This document shows, piece by piece, positions 1 to 7,286 of a stretch of DNA of 7,286 bases. Both the position numbers and the translations under genes were made by a program. The notes beneath the pieces are model-generated. The model ran no database searches. It was given only the letters and a program-made list of their open reading frames with translations, and had not been told where the DNA came from. Source of the stretch: a virus; the IMG/VR virus record IMGVR_UViG_3300007042_000002, positions 1 to 7,286 of that record; one strand, given 5' to 3'. Positions within the stretch are counted from its first letter, which is position 1. The number at the start of each line of letters is the position of its first letter.

Positions 1-99
1 AGAGCATCTATGAGCCTGCTCCGGTTGAGAGCCTTCCGCTTCGTGTTTGCCTGTCGCCGACGATGAAGCACGCCGACGACCCGGCAAACCCTCAAATCA
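1..99. repeat. Terminal redundancy, left copy (identical to 7188..7286)
   Basis: Base-by-base comparison gives 99/99 identity with the last 99 nt of the window. Confidence 0.95.
31..99 (+). repeat. 69-bp direct repeat, copy B (same sequence as 7218..7286)
   Basis: 66/69 identical to 7003..7071. Internal layout is TTTGCC (46..51), then CGCCGACGA (55..63), a 7-nt spacer, CGCCGACGA (71..79), then GGCAAA (83..88). Confidence 0.9.
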
Positions 100-123: not shown

Positions 124-160
124 AGCGATTTTGTGGGGCCCGCAAACCCACAAAATCGCT
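124..160. repeat. Perfect hairpin with 14-bp stem and 9-nt loop; candidate packaging-signal or origin hairpin
   Basis: agcgattttgtggg (124..137) is the exact reverse complement of cccacaaaatcgct (147..160). No U/T run follows on either strand, so it is not a classic terminator. Confidence 0.6.
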
Positions 161-193: not shown

Positions 194-206
194 TGTAATT
201 TGGGCA

Positions 207-245
207 AATATACGTTTAACGAAAAATATACGTTTAACGAAAAAT
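207..245. repeat. Tandem 18-bp iteron aatatacgtttaacgaaa, two full copies plus a partial third
   Basis: 207..224 equals 225..242 exactly, followed by aat. Each unit contains the inverted core CGTT-T-AACG. Confidence 0.85.
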
Positions 246-302
246 TAAGGGTATAGTTTGGGCGATATTAGGGTGTCAAGCTAAGAAACCCCCCTACCCC
301 CC

Positions 303-1240
303 TTTTTTGACCCCACCTGTATTGCAAGGATTTACGGTTCTAATCAAGAGAATATTAACGATTTCTTAGCGGATGCCCCTAACGTCCATGGTGTCGGTGA
401 GCATACGAATTTCACCGGCCGGGCCTTAATCCCACATCCGGAGGACACATCTGTAAAGCTGGTTACGGTTGCAGTAAAACGGTGTGCCACGTTCTGCAGT
501 TCGTGTTGCATTGCGCCTGTCCTCTCGACGGGCAACGGTGCGTACAGTATTGATTTCACTTCGGATATTCTCCTCTTAGTCTCCAGTAGCTTCGACCGGG
601 GGCCTAGCCCTCGCGCAGCCGTCTCAGCGTAAAACTAGACTTAAATATCATCCCTTGATAGGTGCTTTGGTACTTAGCCCTCTACACCGTAGATTTTCCG
701 TTACTCTGTTCCTGCTCCAGGGAGCCAAGAGAGCCCTCTTGCGCTCTGTGGTCCTACACCTGTAAAACAGTGGTGGACCGAACCACTGTCCCTACTACTA
801 ACCACCTCTTGCACCTCCTTAAAAACTGCCTTTTTTTCAGGGTATGCACATTTGCGAATAAATGTCAATCCCCTGCCGTATGAAATTCGTATTGCTTTTT
901 AGCAAGAATCATGCCAACTGCAAAAACCCCCTAAAATCCTGTACCAATCGCGCAAAAGCAAAAGCCTTTAGCCGATAGATCCTTGCCCCGCTGAAGCCGG
1001 TGTTACCACCACTAAAAATCAACGTTCAATGCCATTAGGCCGCCAAGCGCGAATACGCTCCACTAGCCTGCGCCTACTTGCATCCGCGCCAAAGCTTCAA
1101 CACTTGGGGAAAGTCTTAATACTCAACCACTTAGGCCCGGCCACTCAGTGGCCGACGGTAGATTCATGCACACGGAACGAAGAGCGCCACCGTAGGGGGG
1201 TACCCCCTACACCCCCAATCAAGGCTTCGATTAACTCTAC
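303..1240. other. ORF-free, GC-enriched, hairpin-dense segment; candidate structured ncRNA or non-coding insertion
   Basis: No ORF with a credible start and protein-like sequence in six frames. Hand GC counts of 60-nt lines are 32, 30, 37, 30 and 31 of 60 here, against 21 and 24 of 60 in the zot-like and pIII-like genes. Local hairpins at 395..417, 516..532, 726..741, 767..789, 1138..1154 and 1192..1210. Confidence 0.4.
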
Positions 1241-1248
1241 TGCAAGAT

Positions 1249-1315
1249 TTTATTATCTTGAAGTATTCAATTTATTATCTCAAACATTATCTAGAACATT
1301 AAATTTTATTATTTT
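1249..1315. repeat. AT-rich tract with reiterated (TTT)ATTATCT motif; candidate origin or nick region
   Basis: tttattatct occurs at 1249..1258 and 1271..1280, attatct at 1286..1292, and a degenerate attattt at 1308..1314. aacatta occurs twice (1283..1289 and 1295..1301). The tract abuts the stop of the zot-like gene. Confidence 0.4.
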
Positions 1316-2763: not shown

Positions 2764-4206
2764 CTAACCTCCTAAGCGAATGGCGACCCAAAGATATGTG
2801 CAAGACACGATTAACCAGCCAATCATGTTTGCTAAATCCCACCAATCTGACCCCATTTCAATATCATGACCCAGCAAAGTAAATCCAGTAGCGCATTGGC
2901 TTACGTTTTGAGCGCCAAAGAGATTAGTTTTTAATTCCTTATTTTCATGTACATGCCATATTGAGGATTCATCTACCGGCGGGCCTGTATCGCTACCCAA
3001 TGCCTGTAGCCCGGCTACCTCTTCAGCACGCCAGTTAGTATCTTGATTACCTCCATTATCTAACGTTGCTAGTTTCTCTAATGCACAAGTAGAGCGCCAT
3101 TGCATTATCAAACTGCTAAATTCCAAGGCATCACATTTATCCCCCGTGCATACCGGAGGACGATCACACGCGCCACCGCTTATATTCCGATTCTTGCGGG
3201 TATTGCAATCAATCCGCCATAGAATCCGAGACTGTCCACACAATATAGGATCCCCTGAACAAGAGGGAGGCATATTACAACCATCACCGCCGCTAAAACG
3301 GTTTCCCCCGGAACCCGTTTCACCGGCTCCATTATCTGAATTATTTGATTCCCCTGAATCATCATTATTTTTAGGATCTTCTGCAATCCATTTGCATGTA
3401 CCATCCGGCCCTAGTTTTTGTCCCATCGGGCAAGCTTCATTATCTAGTTCGCACTCTCCAGAAATATTCAACATTCCCGCAGAACATTCGTTTTCTAATC
3501 TTTTACAGTAGGCTAAACCATACTGAATAGCTCCCGGAGTTCCTTTAGGAACTCTGCTCATTCCATCGGGACACAACTCAAGTAAACATTTCCCTGATGC
3601 GTCTTTATTATCTTCTTCGCACTTTTCCGAAGTTCCTATACAAATACCCCCATGATCCTCAAGCCAAGTATCACCAAATTCTAAACAATCACCTTTAAAG
3701 GTATTCGGATCACAGAAAGAACCCGTATGCCCAAAAGTAATACCAGAAGCCCACTCTATACAACCCTCGTTGCAATAAAAAGAACCTTCAGGATAAGGAA
3801 GGCCGATATTAATCTTTAATCCCTCTCCACCTACTTCACAAGCATCCTGACATTCTTTTGTATATGGGTTAAAAACATCGCCATCTGTACATATTGTGTC
3901 ATCTACCAACCAGTAAAAATACATGTACCCCTGTTCATCCCCACAATAAGGCGACGACACCCCACCATGCCCATTCATCATGCACCAAAAAGAAGTTCCC
4001 TCTACCCTACAATAGCCCGGGTTATCATAATGCCCCTCATAAGGTGAACCTTTCAAAGAAGCATCCAAATCCGCTAAGGTCTGCATACATGCTGACCAAG
4101 CTGCCGACTTAGTCGGGTATTCATACCAACCCGCCTTAGCTTCACTAAAAAAGAAAATCAAAAACACTGCTATACATTGCCATGTAAGCACTTGCTTGAT
4201 ATTCAT
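2764..4206 (-). CDS. pIII-like adsorption / minor coat protein, Cys-rich (480 aa from ATG 4206; the ORF is open to TTG 4233)
   Basis: Signal peptide MNIKQVLTWQCIAVFLIFFFSEAKA. About 29 ectodomain cysteines. G/S/N/D-rich linker (aa 286-318 of the 489-aa ORF). C-terminal hydrophobic anchor WLIVSCTYLWVAIRLGG. ATG 4206 follows the upstream micro-ORF stop by 1 nt. Confidence 0.85.
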   Translation of the reverse strand: MNIKQVLTWQCIAVFLIFFFSEAKAGWYEYPTKSAAWSACMQTLADLDASLKGSPYEGHYDNPGYCRVEGTSFWCMMNGHGGVSSPYCGDEQGYMYFYWLVDDTICTDGDVFNPYTKECQDACEVGGEGLKINIGLPYPEGSFYCNEGCIEWASGITFGHTGSFCDPNTFKGDCLEFGDTWLEDHGGICIGTSEKCEEDNKDASGKCLLELCPDGMSRVPKGTPGAIQYGLAYCKRLENECSAGMLNISGECELDNEACPMGQKLGPDGTCKWIAEDPKNNDDSGESNNSDNGAGETGSGGNRFSGGDGCNMPPSCSGDPILCGQSRILWRIDCNTRKNRNISGGACDRPPVCTGDKCDALEFSSLIMQWRSTCALEKLATLDNGGNQDTNWRAEEVAGLQALGSDTGPPVDESSIWHVHENKELKTNLFGAQNVSQCATGFTLLGHDIEMGSDWWDLANMIGWLIVSCTYLWVAIRLGG

Positions 4207-4207
4207 T

Positions 4208-4297
4208 TCATTCGTCCCAACCATGGGAAGCAATTACTGCCGCGCATATCCACCAAATCAGCACCAATAAACCGTAGAAATTCTCAAACCCTTTCAT
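4208..4297 (-). CDS. 29-aa hydrophobic micro-ORF (MKGFENFYGLLVLIWWICAAVIASHGWDE), not in the ORF track
   Basis: My own translation. It has a single TM-like core, and its TGA stop is 1 nt before the pIII-like ATG (tgaaATG). That junction type matches the gV-like/38-aa junction. The RBS is weak. Confidence 0.45.
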   Translation of the reverse strand: MKGFENFYGLLVLIWWICAAVIASHGWDE

Positions 4298-4362
4298 CTC
4301 TCTTGTTCTTATCTTCCTGTAAAAAGCTACTATCTACGAGTATCGTGCCGCTATCCCTTGCT

Positions 4363-4402
4363 GCTGGCCCCGTCCCTTGCCAAGCTGCGGGACAAGGCCA
4401 GC
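4363..4402. repeat. GC-rich imperfect hairpin in the coat/pIII gap
   Basis: Outer stem gctggcc (4363..4369) pairs with ggccagc (4396..4402). Inner stem gtccc (4372..4376) pairs with gggac (4389..4393). tcccttgc is directly repeated at 4354..4361 and 4373..4380. Confidence 0.5.
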
Positions 4403-4443
4403 GCTGCGCGCTTAGCGCACGATGTTAGAAATATCGAGAGACT

Positions 4444-4486
4444 GTACTTATTTAAAAAATATGTCCCATATTCTTTAAATAAGTAC
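4444..4486. repeat. Long AT-rich hairpin with 20-bp stem (1 mismatch) and 3-nt loop
   Basis: gtacttatttaaaaaatatg (4444..4463) pairs with catattctttaaataagtac (4467..4486). Confidence 0.7.
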
Positions 4487-4502
4487 GCTCAGGCCGCGCG
4501 CT

Positions 4503-4537
4503 GTATTAAAGAGAGTTACAAGAACTCTCTTTAATAC
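4503..4537 (-). terminator. Perfect hairpin (15-bp stem, 5-nt loop) 10 nt downstream of the major coat stop; possible terminator or mRNA-stabilising element
   Basis: gtattaaagagagtt (4503..4517) pairs with aactctctttaatac (4523..4537). Its position matches the post-gene-VIII terminator of Ff phages, but no U-run follows, so it is not a canonical intrinsic terminator. Confidence 0.4.
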
Positions 4538-4547
4538 GCTTGCTACA

Positions 4548-4778
4548 TTATCGGGGTTTCAGTAAGTTAGCCGCTCTGATTGCCCATAACACCACTGCAA
4601 AAGCAATCACCAGCCCGATAACCGCCACTTTATAAGTGCTGAACTCTGCCAGTATTCCGCTAGTATCTGGCGGGGTTGATTGAGCAAAAGCAAACCCCGG
4701 AACCAAAGACATAAACATCAAGAAAACAGCCGCTTGTGCATGGCTTACTTTTGTTTTTACCGTTTGCAACATTTTCAT
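4548..4778 (-). CDS. Major coat protein, pVIII-like (76-aa precursor)
   Basis: Signal peptide ends in AFA before QS. The mature ~44 aa has an acidic N-terminus (D, E), a hydrophobic core VAVIGLVIAFAVVLWAI and a basic C-terminus RAANLLKPR. A GAGGT lies 5 nt upstream of the ATG. Confidence 0.9.
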   Translation of the reverse strand: MKMLQTVKTKVSHAQAAVFLMFMSLVPGFAFAQSTPPDTSGILAEFSTYKVAVIGLVIAFAVVLWAIRAANLLKPR

Positions 4779-5094: not shown

Positions 5095-5427
5095 TCAGGC
5101 GGCCTTAATCACTCGCGGAGCCTGTTGCTTCGCTACAGATTCCGGATTAATTAAAGTAAACCGGCGAGATAATGCCAAGCTGCCATAGCGGCCCGGTTCA
5201 ATATCGGCCATTACATTCCAAAGTCTTACCGTTCCAACTGATAAGGCTTCCTCTGGACGTTCTACAGGAATATCTACCCTACATGAGACCTCATCATCTA
5301 ATTGAATAATTGCACGTTGAAAATATACTGTTCTCGGGACCCCTAAGCGGGTCTGTATCTGCCTGTATTCAAGCTCTCCTTTAATCACTACTTTCGGCAA
5401 TTTAACTGTCGTCTCTTCGCTACTCAT
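5095..5427 (-). CDS. Gene-V-like ssDNA-binding protein (110 aa)
   Basis: It lies immediately after Rep. The C-terminal motif GRYGSLALSRRFTLI parallels the M13 gVp sequence GQFGSLMIDRLRLV. Size and beta-rich pattern fit an OB-fold. Confidence 0.75.
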   Translation of the reverse strand: MSSEETTVKLPKVVIKGELEYRQIQTRLGVPRTVYFQRAIIQLDDEVSCRVDIPVERPEEALSVGTVRLWNVMADIEPGRYGSLALSRRFTLINPESVAKQQAPRVIKAA

Positions 5428-5496
5428 CTTCGCTTCTTCTCTCTTCGTCTATGGGTTTAATTAATGATCCTAAACAACTGCATTTAAAGAGGCGGA

Positions 5497-6207
5497 TCAC
5501 TTCTCTTTAAATAAATCGCTATTTCCATATACGTTCAATAAAAATTTATCCAAATTTTCATTGAACTTTCCGACATCCTCTTCTGCGTTTTTCCCCTCTG
5601 ATTTTTCCCTAGATTGATCTAACAATCTGCGATGGTTAAATACTAAAGGCTGAAACAATTCATCTTTCTCTAAACGCCTTCCATAATCCATCTTTGGCGG
5701 TTTCCACTTTCCAAAATTTTCAGAAAAATCGACTAAACCACCCTTAACCACATACTTAGAAACATAATGCGCAACATCTGTTGAACTCGTCGGACGCTCT
5801 AATCGATTCCGACCAAATTCCTTAAACCAAAATTCATGCCACTCATACCGCGACATCAATTGATTAAGATCAGCCGTTGGCGCAGATACCACCGCATGAA
5901 AATGCAGGCGGCCATCTCTGTGAAATTCCGTTCCTCGCGCCCATTGCAAACCACCATGGACCGCTTTATTCCAATATTTCCCATAAACTTCCCTGTTAAT
6001 GTAATGAACGAAGTATCTAAACGCCTTATCTGCCGCTTCCGGGTGCATCCCACCTGTGCGACCACTCGCCCGCTCCCTTCGAAAAGTGAGCGTCCAAAAT
6101 TGATGCCAGTTATACCGGGCCAATAAATCCCCATACGCCTGTGCTGCTTGCGCCTGCGAACTCGCCCGAGAAAATAAAGCTGATTCGTCCTTAAATCCCT
6201 CATACAA
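5497..6207 (-). CDS. HUH rolling-circle replication initiator (236 aa from TTG 6207; the ORF is open to GTG 6291)
   Basis: Motif 1 FWTLTF, the HUH motif RLHFHAVV, and the catalytic Tyr motif AHYVSKYVVK. TTG 6207 is preceded by AGGTGG with a 5-nt spacer and overlaps the upstream stop. The 6208..6291 extension reads as Cys/Trp-rich, out-of-frame-looking sequence. Confidence 0.85.
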   Translation of the reverse strand: MYEGFKDESALFSRASSQAQAAQAYGDLLARYNWHQFWTLTFRRERASGRTGGMHPEAADKAFRYFVHYINREVYGKYWNKAVHGGLQWARGTEFHRDGRLHFHAVVSAPTADLNQLMSRYEWHEFWFKEFGRNRLERPTSSTDVAHYVSKYVVKGGLVDFSENFGKWKPPKMDYGRRLEKDELFQPLVFNHRRLLDQSREKSEGKNAEEDVGKFNENLDKFLLNVYGNSDLFKEK

Positions 6208-6472
6208 TCCGTCCACCTGTGTACATCCAGTCAAAGCCCAGACGCATCGCCAAATCTTCAAACAAATCCGGCTGAATAAATTCCCGTTCACTCACGCCCG
6301 CTAACTGCTTTGCCGTTTCGTGCGCACGCTGTGCCGGTCTACCTCTGTCCCAATAATCCCGATACCAAAACATGTAGTTATCGCGTTTTTCGCCAATTAC
6401 TAAGCCTCTATAAACCCGTAACCGGTAACGCTTACGAGGAATACCCCCGCTTTTAAGGCATTTTTGTGTCAT
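6200..6472 (-). CDS. Small basic protein (90 aa), first gene of the minus-strand operon; possibly DNA-binding
   Basis: The ATG has GAGGGT 8 nt upstream. The sequence is protein-like, with an HTH-like stretch AHETAKQLAGVSEREF. Its stop overlaps the proposed Rep TTG start. Confidence 0.55.
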   Translation of the reverse strand: MTQKCLKSGGIPRKRYRLRVYRGLVIGEKRDNYMFWYRDYWDRGRPAQRAHETAKQLAGVSEREFIQPDLFEDLAMRLGFDWMYTGGRIV

Positions 6473-6617: not shown

Positions 6618-6905
6618 ATGTCAACAGTTGCAAAACTTCTAGACGAAGTCAAAGACCGGAAAAAAATCAGATCAGACAATGCACTAGCAAAAAAACTAGA
6701 AACACAAAGGCAAGTCGTATCACAATGGAGATACGGACTTAGCTACCCAAGTGAAGAGAACATTGCGCAATTAGCTGAAATGGCAGACGACGACCCCGGG
6801 AAGTGGCTCCTAAACATCAAAATTTCTAGAACTGAAGGAAAAGCCCGTTTAGGATGGGAATCTATTGCCAACCGTCTGTCAAACACAAACCCGATTCACG
6901 CTTAA
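6618..6905 (+). CDS. Cro/CI-type (XRE-like) HTH transcriptional repressor (95 aa)
   Basis: HTH signature SDNALAKKLETQRQVVSQWRYG. It is oriented divergently from the replication and morphogenesis operon. An AAGGA lies 10 nt upstream of the ATG. Confidence 0.75.
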   Translation: MSTVAKLLDEVKDRKKIRSDNALAKKLETQRQVVSQWRYGLSYPSEENIAQLAEMADDDPGKWLLNIKISRTEGKARLGWESIANRLSNTNPIHA

Positions 6906-6922
6906 AAACAATAACTACATAC

Positions 6923-6964
6923 GCGCTTTTGCCTTCTAATCATGAAGCCTTTCGGCAAAAGCGC
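6923..6964. repeat. Perfect 11-bp inverted repeat with a 20-nt spacer, just downstream of the repressor gene
   Basis: gcgcttttgcc (6923..6933) pairs with ggcaaaagcgc (6954..6964). It shares the TTTGCC/GGCAAA arms with the 69-bp repeats. No T-run follows. Confidence 0.6.
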
Positions 6965-7002
6965 CCTAACCATCGGCGGGGTTATGTCACCAACATACCC
7001 CC

Positions 7003-7071
7003 GCCTTTTGCTTCGTGTTTGCCCGTCGCCGACGATGAAGCACGCCGACGACCCGGCAAACCCTCAAATCA
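7003..7071 (+). repeat. 69-bp direct repeat, copy A
   Basis: Three mismatches against 31..99 (7008, 7009, 7024). It lies 215 bp upstream of copy B on the circular map and has the same nested inverted and direct repeat layout. Confidence 0.9.
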
Positions 7072-7187
7072 GCCCCGCAACACCTCAAGCAAAAAACCGT
7101 GCAAAAGAATGCGATTTAAGCGCGTCTAACGCTTCACATGGGTGATTCCCTATCCCAAGCCCTAGGAATCGATTCTAGGCATGTTTT

Positions 7188-7286
7188 AGAGCATCTATGA
7201 GCCTGCTCCGGTTGAGAGCCTTCCGCTTCGTGTTTGCCTGTCGCCGACGATGAAGCACGCCGACGACCCGGCAAACCCTCAAATCA
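7188..7286. repeat. Terminal redundancy, right copy (identical to 1..99)
   Basis: 99/99 identity with nt 1..99. The repeat starts and stops exactly at the window edges. Confidence 0.95.

What the first reader, a model, noticed from the sequence alone, without database searches (positions are those of the whole stretch)
303..1240. About 0.9 kb of ORF-free, GC-enriched, hairpin-dense DNA in the inovirus cargo slot
Seen: from the zot-like stop (1309) down to about nt 300 no frame holds a credible gene. The only listed ORFs (71, 73 and 101 aa) have odd composition and poor start contexts. Hand GC counts per 60-nt line are 32, 30, 37, 30 and 31 here, against 21 and 24 in structural genes. Short GC-rich hairpins are frequent (395..417, 516..532, 726..741, 767..789, 1138..1154, 1192..1210). 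Established: the position after the zot/pI gene is where inoviruses carry accessory cargo (for example ctxAB in CTXphi), and a 7.2-kb inovirus normally has a ~0.5-kb intergenic region. Inference: about 13 percent of a size-constrained ssDNA genome spent on non-coding, compositionally foreign sequence suggests a function. Options are a large structured ncRNA, a non-coding mobile insertion, or a decayed gene. I could not match it by eye to RNase P, tmRNA, SRP, group I/II introns or known ribozyme cores.
Basis: partly seen in the sequence, partly recalled or inferred. Interest (0 to 1): 0.7.

Follow-up and report, generated by a model that had tools for sequence, protein, structure and literature searches.

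The report
Conserved structured noncoding element in inovirus
A small filamentous phage gives about 13% of its genome to a 0.93-kb stretch that codes for no protein, is kept by selection in its one known relative, and folds through nested long-range helices, so it is probably a new large structured RNA of unknown function.

Summary
The window is a circular 7,187-nt inovirus with its genes on the - strand. The stretch after zot has no gene. ORFs over its best-conserved block lie in different frames in the only relative that carries it (L001, Zot 85% identical), and 19 of 22 indels are not multiples of three. It is under selection: 74% identity against 55% at four-fold degenerate sites, with perfect runs of 31, 27 and 26 nt. 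Corrected bounds are about 284-1216.

"Hairpin-dense" does not hold thermodynamically: local fold z-scores are ordinary. Comparison does show conserved structure. Seven helices keep pairing through at least two compensatory changes, against 1.6 expected and 0-3 in coding controls. One is a 20-bp helix joining 871-892 to 403-423. One-sided changes fit G-U pairs on the - strand, and a conserved promoter-like site follows the zot stop.

Rfam, tRNA/tmRNA, protein and DNA searches found no homolog. The best reading (about 0.5) is a new large structured RNA on the phage sense strand. A folded single-stranded DNA element is the main rival. Decayed gene is rejected, and mobile insertion is unsupported. 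Only two sequences exist and there are no expression data.

The parts
284..1216 (-). The conserved noncoding element (about 933 nt), read 5'->3' from 1216 to 284 on the phage sense strand.
   Evidence: Homologous to L001 3379-4350. 887 ungapped columns are 74.0% identical, against 55% at 4-fold degenerate sites of the phage genes. Perfect runs of 31, 27, 26, 21 and 19 nt. 19 of 22 indels are not multiples of three. No Rfam, tRNA or tmRNA match.
1274..1302 (-). Promoter-like site just after the zot stop: TTAATG-17 nt-GATAAT. A start near 1267 would be about 50 nt upstream of the element.
   Evidence: Read from the sequence. The homologous L001 site TTAATA-16-GATAAT (3305-3332) was called by the scan. 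A second site, TTCACA-16-AATAAT at 1335-1308(-), was called in the window. These are consensus matches only.
1192..1210 (-). Invariant GC hairpin GTAGGGGG/CCCCCTAC at the 5' end. Its 3' arm can instead pair with 288-297.
   Evidence: local hairpin -16.2 kcal/mol, long-range alternative -19.7 kcal/mol.
288..302 (-). 3' strand of the closing helix P1. GUAGGGGGGU (297-288) pairs with ACCCCCCUAC (1201-1192). Alternatively 302-284 pairs with 1191-1174 through G-U pairs. It is also one copy of the flanking direct repeat GGGGG(N)GTAGGGGG, whose other copy is at 1203-1216.
   Evidence: Both blocks are invariant in L001, so there is no covariation test.
1138..1154 (-). Hairpin CGGCCAC-UGA-GUGGCCG. L001 has CAUCCGC-UAA-GCGGAUG.
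   Evidence: Three compensatory base-pair changes. A further outer pair is U-G in the window and U-A in L001.
1116..1124 (-). 5' strand of long-range helix P2, pairing with 350-358 across 774 nt.
   Evidence: GAGUAUUAA/UUAAUAUUC in the window, GAAUGUUAA/UUAAUAUUC in L001. Two one-sided transitions keep pairing only as G-U on the - strand.
350..358 (-). 3' strand of P2.
1046..1090 (-). Hairpin domain in the more variable 5' third of the element.
   Evidence: 9 bp with three compensatory and two one-sided changes.
871..892 (-). 5' strand of long-range helix P3, pairing with 403-423 across about 490 nt.
   Evidence: Found independently as a perfect 12-nt inverted repeat in the window and a perfect 17-nt one at the homologous place in L001 (3749-3765/4251-4267). 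20 bp with three compensatory and three one-sided changes, -27.4 kcal/mol.
403..423 (-). 3' strand of P3.
810..848 (-). Hairpin formed by two invariant blocks. It holds the perfect Shine-Dalgarno-like UAAGGAGGUG (about 820-811) inside the stem.
   Evidence: The short ORF that follows it is not conserved: 34 aa in the window, 12 aa in L001 (read).
792..808 (-). 5' strand of long-range helix P4, pairing with 456-477.
   Evidence: Conserved blocks pair. The one-sided changes U-G to C-G and G-C to G-U fit the - strand only.
456..477 (-). 3' strand of P4.
723..745 (-). Hairpin AGCGCAAGAG-GGCU-CUCUUGGCU.
   Evidence: Three compensatory changes.
564..649 (-). Sub-domain closed by 649-643/570-564, containing 628-615/603-589. 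In L001 the inner module is duplicated (3957-4009 and 4036-4088).
   Evidence: Two compensatory plus one one-sided change, and two plus three, respectively.
509..537 (-). Invariant 11-bp hairpin with a GAGAG loop, inside the longest perfectly conserved block (31 nt).
   Evidence: ORFs across it are in different frames in the two phages.
369..402 (-). Window-specific insertion of about 35 nt, absent from L001.

Best explanation
The element at about 1216->284 on the - strand (the phage sense strand) is a new, large (about 0.93 kb) structured noncoding RNA domain.

Proposed working:
- It is transcribed either from the conserved promoter-like site just after the zot stop, or as the 3' extension of the zot operon transcript (inferred).
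- The RNA closes on itself through nested long-range helices: P1 (1201-1192/297-288), P2 (1124-1116/358-350), P3 (892-871/423-403), P4 (808-792/477-456) and P5 (791-784/549-542). These bring its two invariant ends together and carry a dozen hairpins.
- The perfectly conserved blocks are mostly the strands of these helices.
- The Shine-Dalgarno-like motifs lie inside stems, so the RNA is not meant to be translated.

Shown: selection without a reading frame, helices kept by compensatory changes, and no relationship to any known RNA family.

Inferred: that RNA rather than ssDNA is the folded molecule, that it is one unit, and that it acts as a stable particle in trans, in the manner of the phage-borne ornate RNAs ROOL and GOLLD. 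The guessed role is to bind or hold back a host factor during chronic infection. That role has no direct evidence.
For: - No gene.
- Selection: 74.0% identity over 887 columns against 55% at 389 four-fold sites, with perfect runs of 31, 27 and 26 nt.
- Conserved structure: consensus fold -206.7 kcal/mol against -154+-7 for class-preserving column shuffles.
- Compensated helices: 7 helices with at least two compensatory changes against 1.6+-1.3 in shuffles, and 2 against 0.18 with at least three. Coding controls of similar length and identity give 0, 3 and 1, and none with three or more.
- P3 was found independently in each phage as a perfect 12- or 17-nt inverted repeat about 470-485 nt apart, differing by three compensated pairs.
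- Strand: one-sided changes in P2, P4 and the 1155-1137 hairpin keep pairing only as G-U on the - strand. Among candidate helices there are 28 G-T wobbles against 11 A-C.
- A promoter-like site on that strand is conserved in both phages.
- Typical ncRNA pattern: variable loops, a lineage-specific inserted hairpin and a duplicated module next to invariant stems.
Against: - Only two sequences exist, so covariation rests on one divergence event per column, and the alignment was anchored on P2 and P3.
- Single-sequence folding energy is not better than dinucleotide shuffles on the - strand of the window (z -0.86). It is better on the + strand (z -2.76), and L001 gives -2.28 (sense) and -1.88 (antisense).
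- The window's own MFE structure is not supported overall by L001 substitutions.
- Column shuffles do not keep dinucleotide content, so the z of -7.4 is inflated.
- The - strand is G+T rich, which favours G-T wobbles by chance.
- No terminator was found, there are no expression data, and no function can be read from the sequence.
- Every helix would form equally in the packaged ssDNA, which has the same sense.
Confidence: 0.5

Rival explanations
1. The folded molecule is the single-stranded viral DNA, not RNA. The element would be a structured ssDNA region of the rolling-circle product. Possible roles are an enlarged complementary-strand origin or priming site (like the Ff minus-strand origin or plasmid single-strand origins), a folded recombination site (like the CTXphi attP hairpin), or an assembly signal.
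For: - The supported strand is the gene-sense strand, which by Ff biology is also the packaged strand (inference).
- All Watson-Crick helices and their compensatory changes fit DNA as well as RNA, and G-T is the best-tolerated DNA mismatch.
- Strand-specific structured noncoding DNA is a known feature of rolling-circle replicons (established knowledge).
- No terminator bounds the element.
Against: - Known minus origins, packaging signals and folded attP sites are 100-300 nt, not 930.
- The strongest local folds, the usual mark of such signals, lie elsewhere: 6901-7100, 1-200 and 4301-4700, with z from -5 to -6.6.
- Several proposed helices depend on many G-U pairs, for example 1191-1174/302-284, and these are weak in DNA.
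- No dif-like site is present.
- Relatives with 59-69% Zot identity do without the element.
Confidence: 0.2
2. The region is not one unit. It would be a patchwork of separate short functional pieces (the 3' UTR of the zot operon with stabilising hairpins, small RNAs, protein-binding sites), and the long-range pairings apart from P3 would be chance.
For: - Conservation is blocky.
- Only some helices carry covariation.
- P1, P4 and the 537-509 hairpin are invariant and so untested.
- Some compensated helices cross the nested model, for example 938-932/558-552 and 1138-1133/426-421.
- Long UTRs that control RNA stability are reported for the filamentous phage SW1 (title and abstract of PMC4762005, listed).
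Against: - P3 (20 bp, three compensations) and P2 span 490 and 774 nt and are properly nested.
- The invariant blocks pair with one another rather than standing alone.
- The excess of compensated helices over shuffles and over coding controls is region-wide.
Confidence: 0.15
3. A non-coding mobile insertion (MITE-like or a recombination product) that entered the common ancestor of the two phages, with little or no function for the phage.
For: - The element is flanked by 13-14-nt direct repeats, GGGGGTGTAGGGGG (1216-1203) and GGGGGGTAGGGGG(G) (302-290). Two matches were found against 0.07 expected.
- GC is 6-7 points above the rest of the genome.
- The element is absent from all other relatives.
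Against: - No second copy was found in any search. The IMG/VR, metagenome and genome pattern scans gave only chance hits, shown to be chance. The phage and plasmid searches found nothing in this region.
- Both phages carry it at the same site.
- The repeat motif is absent from relatives.
- Conservation is well above neutral, so it is kept by selection whatever its origin.
Confidence: 0.1
4. A decayed protein gene, or a real gene hidden by sequencing frameshifts.
For: The position is where relatives carry a 112-114-aa gene. ORFs of 71-101 aa exist.
Against: - No frame is shared with L001.
- 19 of 22 indels shift the frame while the nucleotides on both sides stay identical.
- The 71-aa ORF has no real homolog among 1.84 billion representatives; its two hits are translations of tandem repeats.
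- No trace of the relatives' gene is present.
- 74% identity against 55% neutral is not decay.
Confidence: 0.03

Closest known systems
ROOL and GOLLD, large 'ornate' noncoding RNAs often carried by phages and prophages (PMC5737381; cryo-EM structures in PMC12286853)
   Same: Hundreds of nucleotides of protein-free, selected sequence in a phage genome. Many hairpins hang on nested long-range helices, loops and inserted modules vary, and the function is unknown.
   Different: No sequence or structure match to either family, or to any of the 4,227 Rfam models. The host here is a 7.2-kb ssDNA filamentous phage of a Xanthomonadales-like lineage. From my own knowledge, ROOL and GOLLD are found in tailed dsDNA phages and prophages of Firmicutes and relatives, often next to tRNA genes. 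No tRNA gene is present here. Only two copies are known here.
Intergenic region of Ff (f1/M13/fd) phages: packaging signal, minus- and plus-strand origins
   Same: Noncoding, strand-specific, hairpin-forming DNA after the last morphogenesis gene of an inovirus.
   Different: The Ff region is about 0.5 kb of strong local hairpins (established knowledge). In this phage the strong local folds sit at 6901-7100, 1-200 and 4301-4700. The element is an extra 0.93 kb with ordinary local stability and long-range pairings.
Single-strand origins of rolling-circle plasmids and the folded attP of CTXphi
   Same: Function depends on the fold of one particular DNA strand, and compensatory changes are expected.
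   Different: These are 100-300 nt (established knowledge). No dif-like sequence is present here. Size and architecture differ.
Long untranslated regions of filamentous phage SW1 (PMC4762005)
   Same: A filamentous phage using long noncoding transcript parts to control RNA stability (from that paper's title and abstract).
   Different: Those are 5' UTRs of coding operons. Here the element follows the last gene, is far longer, and closes on itself.

Membership tests
Any described RNA family (Rfam 15: ROOL, GOLLD, OLE, HEARO, group I/II introns, RNase P, tmRNA, 6S, riboswitches and others) | Match to the family covariance model at or near its gathering score | tested here: not met
   Whole window at E<=1: no match. 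Element alone at E<=10: one 17-bit noise hit in the window and six unrelated weak hits in L001, none shared between the two homologs.
tRNA / tmRNA | Cloverleaf or tmRNA fold detectable by ARAGORN | tested here: not met
   No gene in the window or in L001-L006.
Protein-coding gene or recent pseudogene | A reading frame shared between homologs, with indels in multiples of three | tested here: not met
   19 of 22 indels shift the frame, and ORFs over the 31-nt invariant block are in different frames.
Protein-coding gene or recent pseudogene | Protein homologs in sequence databases | tested here: not met
   The 71-aa ORF against 1.84 billion representatives gave only two artefactual hits to tandem-repeat translations. 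A six-frame query against 5.8 billion proteins gave nothing, but short matches could not reach its threshold. No Pfam hit for the two ORFs scanned, the 71-aa (344-559, -) and 101-aa (1029-1334, +) ORFs.
Structured noncoding RNA (generic) | Base pairs kept by compensatory substitutions more often than chance | tested here: met
   7 helices with at least two compensations against 1.6+-1.3 in shuffles and 0-3 in coding controls. P3 has three compensations over 490 nt. This rests on two sequences only.
Structured noncoding RNA (generic) | Folding energy below that of dinucleotide shuffles | tested here: inconclusive
   z = -0.86 (window, - strand), -2.76 (window, + strand), -2.28 and -1.88 (L001). 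Local windows are ordinary.
Structured noncoding RNA (generic) | A transcript of the element exists | not testable with these tools
   Only promoter-like consensus matches on the - strand. No terminator found.
Inovirus origin / packaging-signal region | Strong local hairpins in the viral strand | tested here: not met
   The strongest folds are outside the element, at 6901-7100, 1-200 and 4301-4700.
XerCD-dependent attP (dif-like site) | A dif-like 28-bp site | tested here: not met
Host-specific dif variants were not tested.
Non-autonomous mobile element (MITE-like) | Flanking repeats together with several copies in different contexts | tested here: not met
   Flanking direct repeats are present. 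No other copy was found in any collection searched, and the element is at the same site in both phages.
CsrA/RsmA-titrating RNA (CsrB/RsmZ type) | Excess of GGA / A(N)GGA motifs | tested here: not met
   18 GGA against 21.1+-3.9 in shuffles, and 19.3 per kb against 16.8 per kb in the rest of the genome.

The most novel reading that the evidence does not exclude
A previously unknown class of large (about 930 nt) ornate RNA encoded by filamentous ssDNA phages. It would be a self-closing, multi-helix RNA taking about 13% of a 7.2-kb genome, unrelated to ROOL, GOLLD, OLE or any Rfam family, made from its own promoter and acting as a stable RNA particle during chronic infection.
Probability: 0.4. 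Interest if true: 0.8.

Novelty: new variant of a known kind. Interest (0 to 1): 0.6.

Why it matters
Filamentous phages are among the most size-limited genomes known, and every added base lengthens the virion. Keeping 0.93 kb of selected, non-coding, structured sequence therefore implies a real benefit. If it is an RNA, it would be the first large ornate RNA in an ssDNA phage. It would also be a compact, genetically tractable system for asking what such RNAs do, which is still open for ROOL and GOLLD. If the fold works at the ssDNA level, it would be an unusually large cis-acting DNA structure for rolling-circle replication or assembly. Either way it marks a small, lower-GC clade of Xanthomonadales-type inoviruses that differs from its relatives exactly at this locus.

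Tried and rejected
Database and pattern searches that found nothing:
- Rfam on the whole window and on the element alone in both phages gave nothing usable. ARAGORN found nothing.
- Exact-pattern scans with conserved blocks: four in IMG/VR, two in metagenomes, two in GTDB genomes. All hits were chance (checked in 31, 47, 48).
  - The metagenome hits are GC-rich coding sequence reading VALFVP.
  - The five Nocardia hits are a ribosome-binding site plus start codon of a gene.
  - The metagenome collection does not hold the window or the L001 contig.
- blastn against phage and plasmid records gave nothing in this region.
- nhmmer with a two-sequence profile against all fetched relatives gave nothing.

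Protein-level proxies for a DNA search:
- The 71-aa ORF against 1.84 billion representatives gave two artefacts.
- A six-frame polyprotein query gave nothing. It was insensitive to short matches.
- The Zot C-terminal 120 aa, used to catch fragmentary close relatives, gave nothing closer than 69% identity.
- Contigs of Zot relatives P0003-P0005 have no such element.

Ideas rejected:
- CsrA sponge: no GGA excess.
- dif-like attP: no site.
- Small conserved ORFs behind the two Shine-Dalgarno-like motifs: only the first 5 and 11 codons are shared, then the frames differ.
- Group II intron domain V resemblance of the 537-509 hairpin: two single bulges and a GAGAG loop, with no Rfam support.
- The + strand as the functional strand: first suggested by a T-G pair in hairpin 516-532 and by the window z-score. 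Outweighed by one-sided changes in P2, P4 and the 1155-1137 hairpin, but not excluded.

Not done:
- A covariance model of the whole element could not be built, because the limit is 400 columns.
- The look-up of encoding contigs has no record of the window's own Zot, so its sample is unknown.
Full report
**What the window is.** Bases 1-99 repeat exactly at 7188-7286, so the window is a circular genome of 7,187 nt. The - strand carries the following genes:
- a Rep of the REP_ORF2-G2P family (5497-6291);
- small genes that include a likely major coat protein (4548-4778);
- a 489-aa adsorption-type protein (2764-4233);
- a DUF2523 protein (2452-2760);
- Zot/pI (1309-2376).

A helix-turn-helix protein on the + strand (6618-6905) is 40% identical to the DUF3693 repressor of a relative. 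The noncoding stretch therefore runs from 6906 through the junction to 1308, about 1.6 kb. The finding covers its larger part. Zot homologs place the phage among Xanthomonadales-type inoviruses. Those relatives are 59-62% GC, whereas this genome is 44.8% GC.

**Checking the observation.**
- No ORF above 101 aa lies in 250-1310.
- The element is 51.0% GC against 43.9% for the rest. The 5' half of rep and the ori-like region reach the same GC, so the composition is not clearly foreign.
- Hairpin density does not hold as a thermodynamic claim. 200-nt windows across 301-1300 give z from -2.6 to +2.7 on both strands. Regions 4301-4700, 6901-7100, 1-200 and 5401-5600 give z from -4 to -6.6.
- For the whole element, 100 dinucleotide shuffles give z = -0.86 (- strand) and -2.76 (+ strand). 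For the homolog the values are -2.28 and -1.88.

**A homolog, and only one.** IMG/VR contig IMGVR_UViG_3300007141_000001 (L001/L007/L010, which is JGI Ga0102738_1000414) has a Zot 85% identical to the window's and carries the same noncoding region at the same place. Every other relative found has Zot at 69% identity or less and lacks it. These relatives have zot, a 112-114-aa gene, a short spacer and then the repressor gene on the opposite strand. Eight exact-pattern scans of viral, metagenome and genome collections gave only chance matches. So did blastn against phage and plasmid records, a nucleotide profile search of all fetched loci, and three protein-level proxy searches. The repressor module is not conserved at DNA level between the two phages. 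The element therefore travels with the structural module, not with the immunity module.

**It is not a gene, and it is not decaying.**
- Six-frame comparison of the two copies gives only 10-30-aa pieces in all six frames.
- The ORF that JGI called in L001 (3977-4204) and the window's 71-aa ORF cross the same 31-nt invariant block in different frames.
- Of 22 indels, 19 are not multiples of three.
- No trace of the relatives' post-zot gene is present.
- The 887 aligned columns are 74.0% identical, with perfect runs of 31, 27, 26, 21 and 19 nt. Four-fold degenerate sites of five genes in the same two genomes are only 55% identical (n=389). The element is therefore under purifying selection at the nucleotide level.

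**Conserved structure.** The window's own MFE structure is not supported overall by the substitutions in L001. About 31-36% of changed pairs stay paired, the same as for random pairable columns. Only double changes are enriched, 0.54 against 0.35. Specific helices, however, are well supported.
- The repeat finder reported, independently in each phage, a perfect long-range inverted repeat at the homologous place. In the window it is 403-414 with 881-892 (12 nt). In L001 it is 3749-3765 with 4251-4267 (17 nt). The two versions differ by three compensated base pairs, and the full helix P3 is 20 bp.
- I re-aligned the two copies with P3 and a second long-range helix, P2, as anchors.
- The RNAalifold consensus on the - strand is then -206.7 kcal/mol, against -154+-7 for column shuffles that keep the pattern of conserved and variable columns. 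The + strand gives -165.8 against -115.5+-8. These shuffles do not keep dinucleotide content, so the z-scores are inflated.
- A more direct count covers helices of at least 6 bp that pair in both sequences. Seven carry two or more compensatory double changes, against 1.6+-1.3 in shuffles. Two carry three or more, against 0.18.
- The same count on zot, pIII and rep alignments of similar length and 73-80% identity gives 0, 3 and 1, and none with three or more.

**Architecture** (window coordinates, 5'->3' on the - strand).
- An invariant GC hairpin lies at 1210-1192.
- P1 closes the element. It is either 1201-1192 with 297-288 (10 Watson-Crick pairs, -19.7 kcal/mol, competing with the local hairpin) or 1191-1174 with 302-284 (rich in G-U).
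- A hairpin at 1154-1138 has three compensations.
- P2 joins 1124-1116 to 358-350.
- A more variable stretch holds the hairpin 1090-1046, with three compensations.
- P3 joins 892-871 to 423-403.
- Inside P3 are the 848-810 hairpin made of two invariant blocks, P4 (808-792/477-456) and P5 (791-784/549-542, two compensations).
- Also inside P3 are the hairpin 745-723 (three compensations), the sub-domain 649-564 (two helices with two compensations each) and the invariant hairpin 537-509.
- The invariant blocks are thus largely each other's pairing partners.
- Lineage-specific changes are of the kind seen in structured RNAs: a 35-nt insertion in the window (402-369), a 55-nt insertion in L001 and a duplicated 53-nt module in L001.
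- A few compensated helices cross this nested model. They may be chance, alternative pairings or pseudoknots.

**Which strand, and RNA or DNA.** One-sided substitutions in P2 (two), in P4 (two) and in the outer pair of the 1155-1137 hairpin keep pairing only as G-U on the - strand. On the + strand they would be A-C mismatches. Across candidate helices there are 28 G-T wobbles against 11 A-C, although the - strand is G+T rich. A promoter-like site on the - strand follows the zot stop in both phages: window TTAATG-17-GATAAT at 1302-1274, and L001 TTAATA-16-GATAAT. The scan also calls TTCACA-16-AATAAT at 1335-1308. No terminator was found. The - strand is the gene-sense strand, so by analogy with Ff phages it is also the packaged ssDNA strand. 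The sequence alone cannot separate an RNA fold from an ssDNA fold. The size, the ordinary local stability, the G-U-dependent pairings and the presence of much stronger hairpin clusters elsewhere make RNA the more likely molecule.

**Function.** Nothing in the sequence gives the function.
- It is not a CsrA-type sponge.
- It has no dif-like site.
- It has no tRNA-like part.
- It matches no Rfam family.
- The perfect Shine-Dalgarno-like UAAGGAGGUG, and a GAGAGGA-N8-AUG motif, both sit inside conserved stems. The short ORFs that follow are not conserved beyond 5 and 11 codons.

My committed reading is a stable, self-closing RNA made from the sense strand and acting in trans, in the manner of the phage-borne ornate RNAs ROOL and GOLLD, whose function is also unknown (PMC5737381, PMC12286853). 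I give the RNA reading about 0.5, ssDNA-level function 0.2, a patchwork of smaller elements 0.15, a passenger mobile insertion 0.1 and a decayed gene 0.03.

**Novelty and limits.** Large structured phage RNAs are a known kind, but none is described for inoviruses in the papers I could search, and this element belongs to no described family. The case rests on two sequences, an alignment partly anchored on the helices it supports, and no expression data. The next steps listed would decide it.

Noticed in passing
window 1-99 and 7188-7286: Exact 99-nt terminal overlap, so the contig is a circular genome of 7,187 nt. The noncoding stretch therefore continues across the window ends (6906-7187 plus 1-1308).
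   Followed up: yes
window 7017-7071 and 45-99 (=7232-7286); L001 4842-4907: A 55-nt direct repeat containing an imperfect palindrome (GTCGCCGACG...CGCCGACGAC) occurs twice, 215 nt apart. It is 91% conserved in L001 although the surrounding DNA is not. It lies in the most strongly folding part of the genome (z -5 to -6.5), so it is a likely origin or recombination site.
   Followed up: partly
window 206-241; third partial copy at 5527-5548: Tandem 18-nt repeat AAATATACGTTTAACGAA x2, absent from L001. Possibly protein-binding iterons.
   Followed up: no
window 4301-4700: Cluster of near-perfect palindromes (4444-4486, 4503-4537) between the pIII-like gene and the coat protein gene, with fold z from -5 to -6.6 on both strands. 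Candidate terminator and/or packaging signal.
   Followed up: no
window 124-160: Perfect 14-bp inverted repeat AGCGATTTTGTGGG/CCCACAAAATCGCT. It is kept in L001 (about 4421-4457) with several compensated positions, judging by eye from the alignment.
   Followed up: no
window 6618-6905 (+) against L001: The repressor module is not homologous at DNA level between the two phages, although the structural genes, rep and the element are. The two phages therefore look heteroimmune.
   Followed up: partly
window 6200-6472 (-): In the 90-aa ORF upstream of and overlapping rep, 4-fold degenerate sites are 78% identical to L001, against 52-57% in the other genes (n=27). This suggests an overlapping constraint.
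   Followed up: no
whole window against relatives L008, L054, L055: This phage and L001 are 45-46% GC, while all other Zot relatives are 59-62% GC. They are probably from a lower-GC host lineage that was not identified.
   Followed up: partly
P0121, P0122 (hits): Two 'proteins' of 1,724 and 1,232 aa in the representative library are translations of tandem-repeat DNA. They give inflated multi-stretch scores (E = 1.8e-14 and 3.5e-08) against an unrelated 71-aa query.
   Followed up: yes
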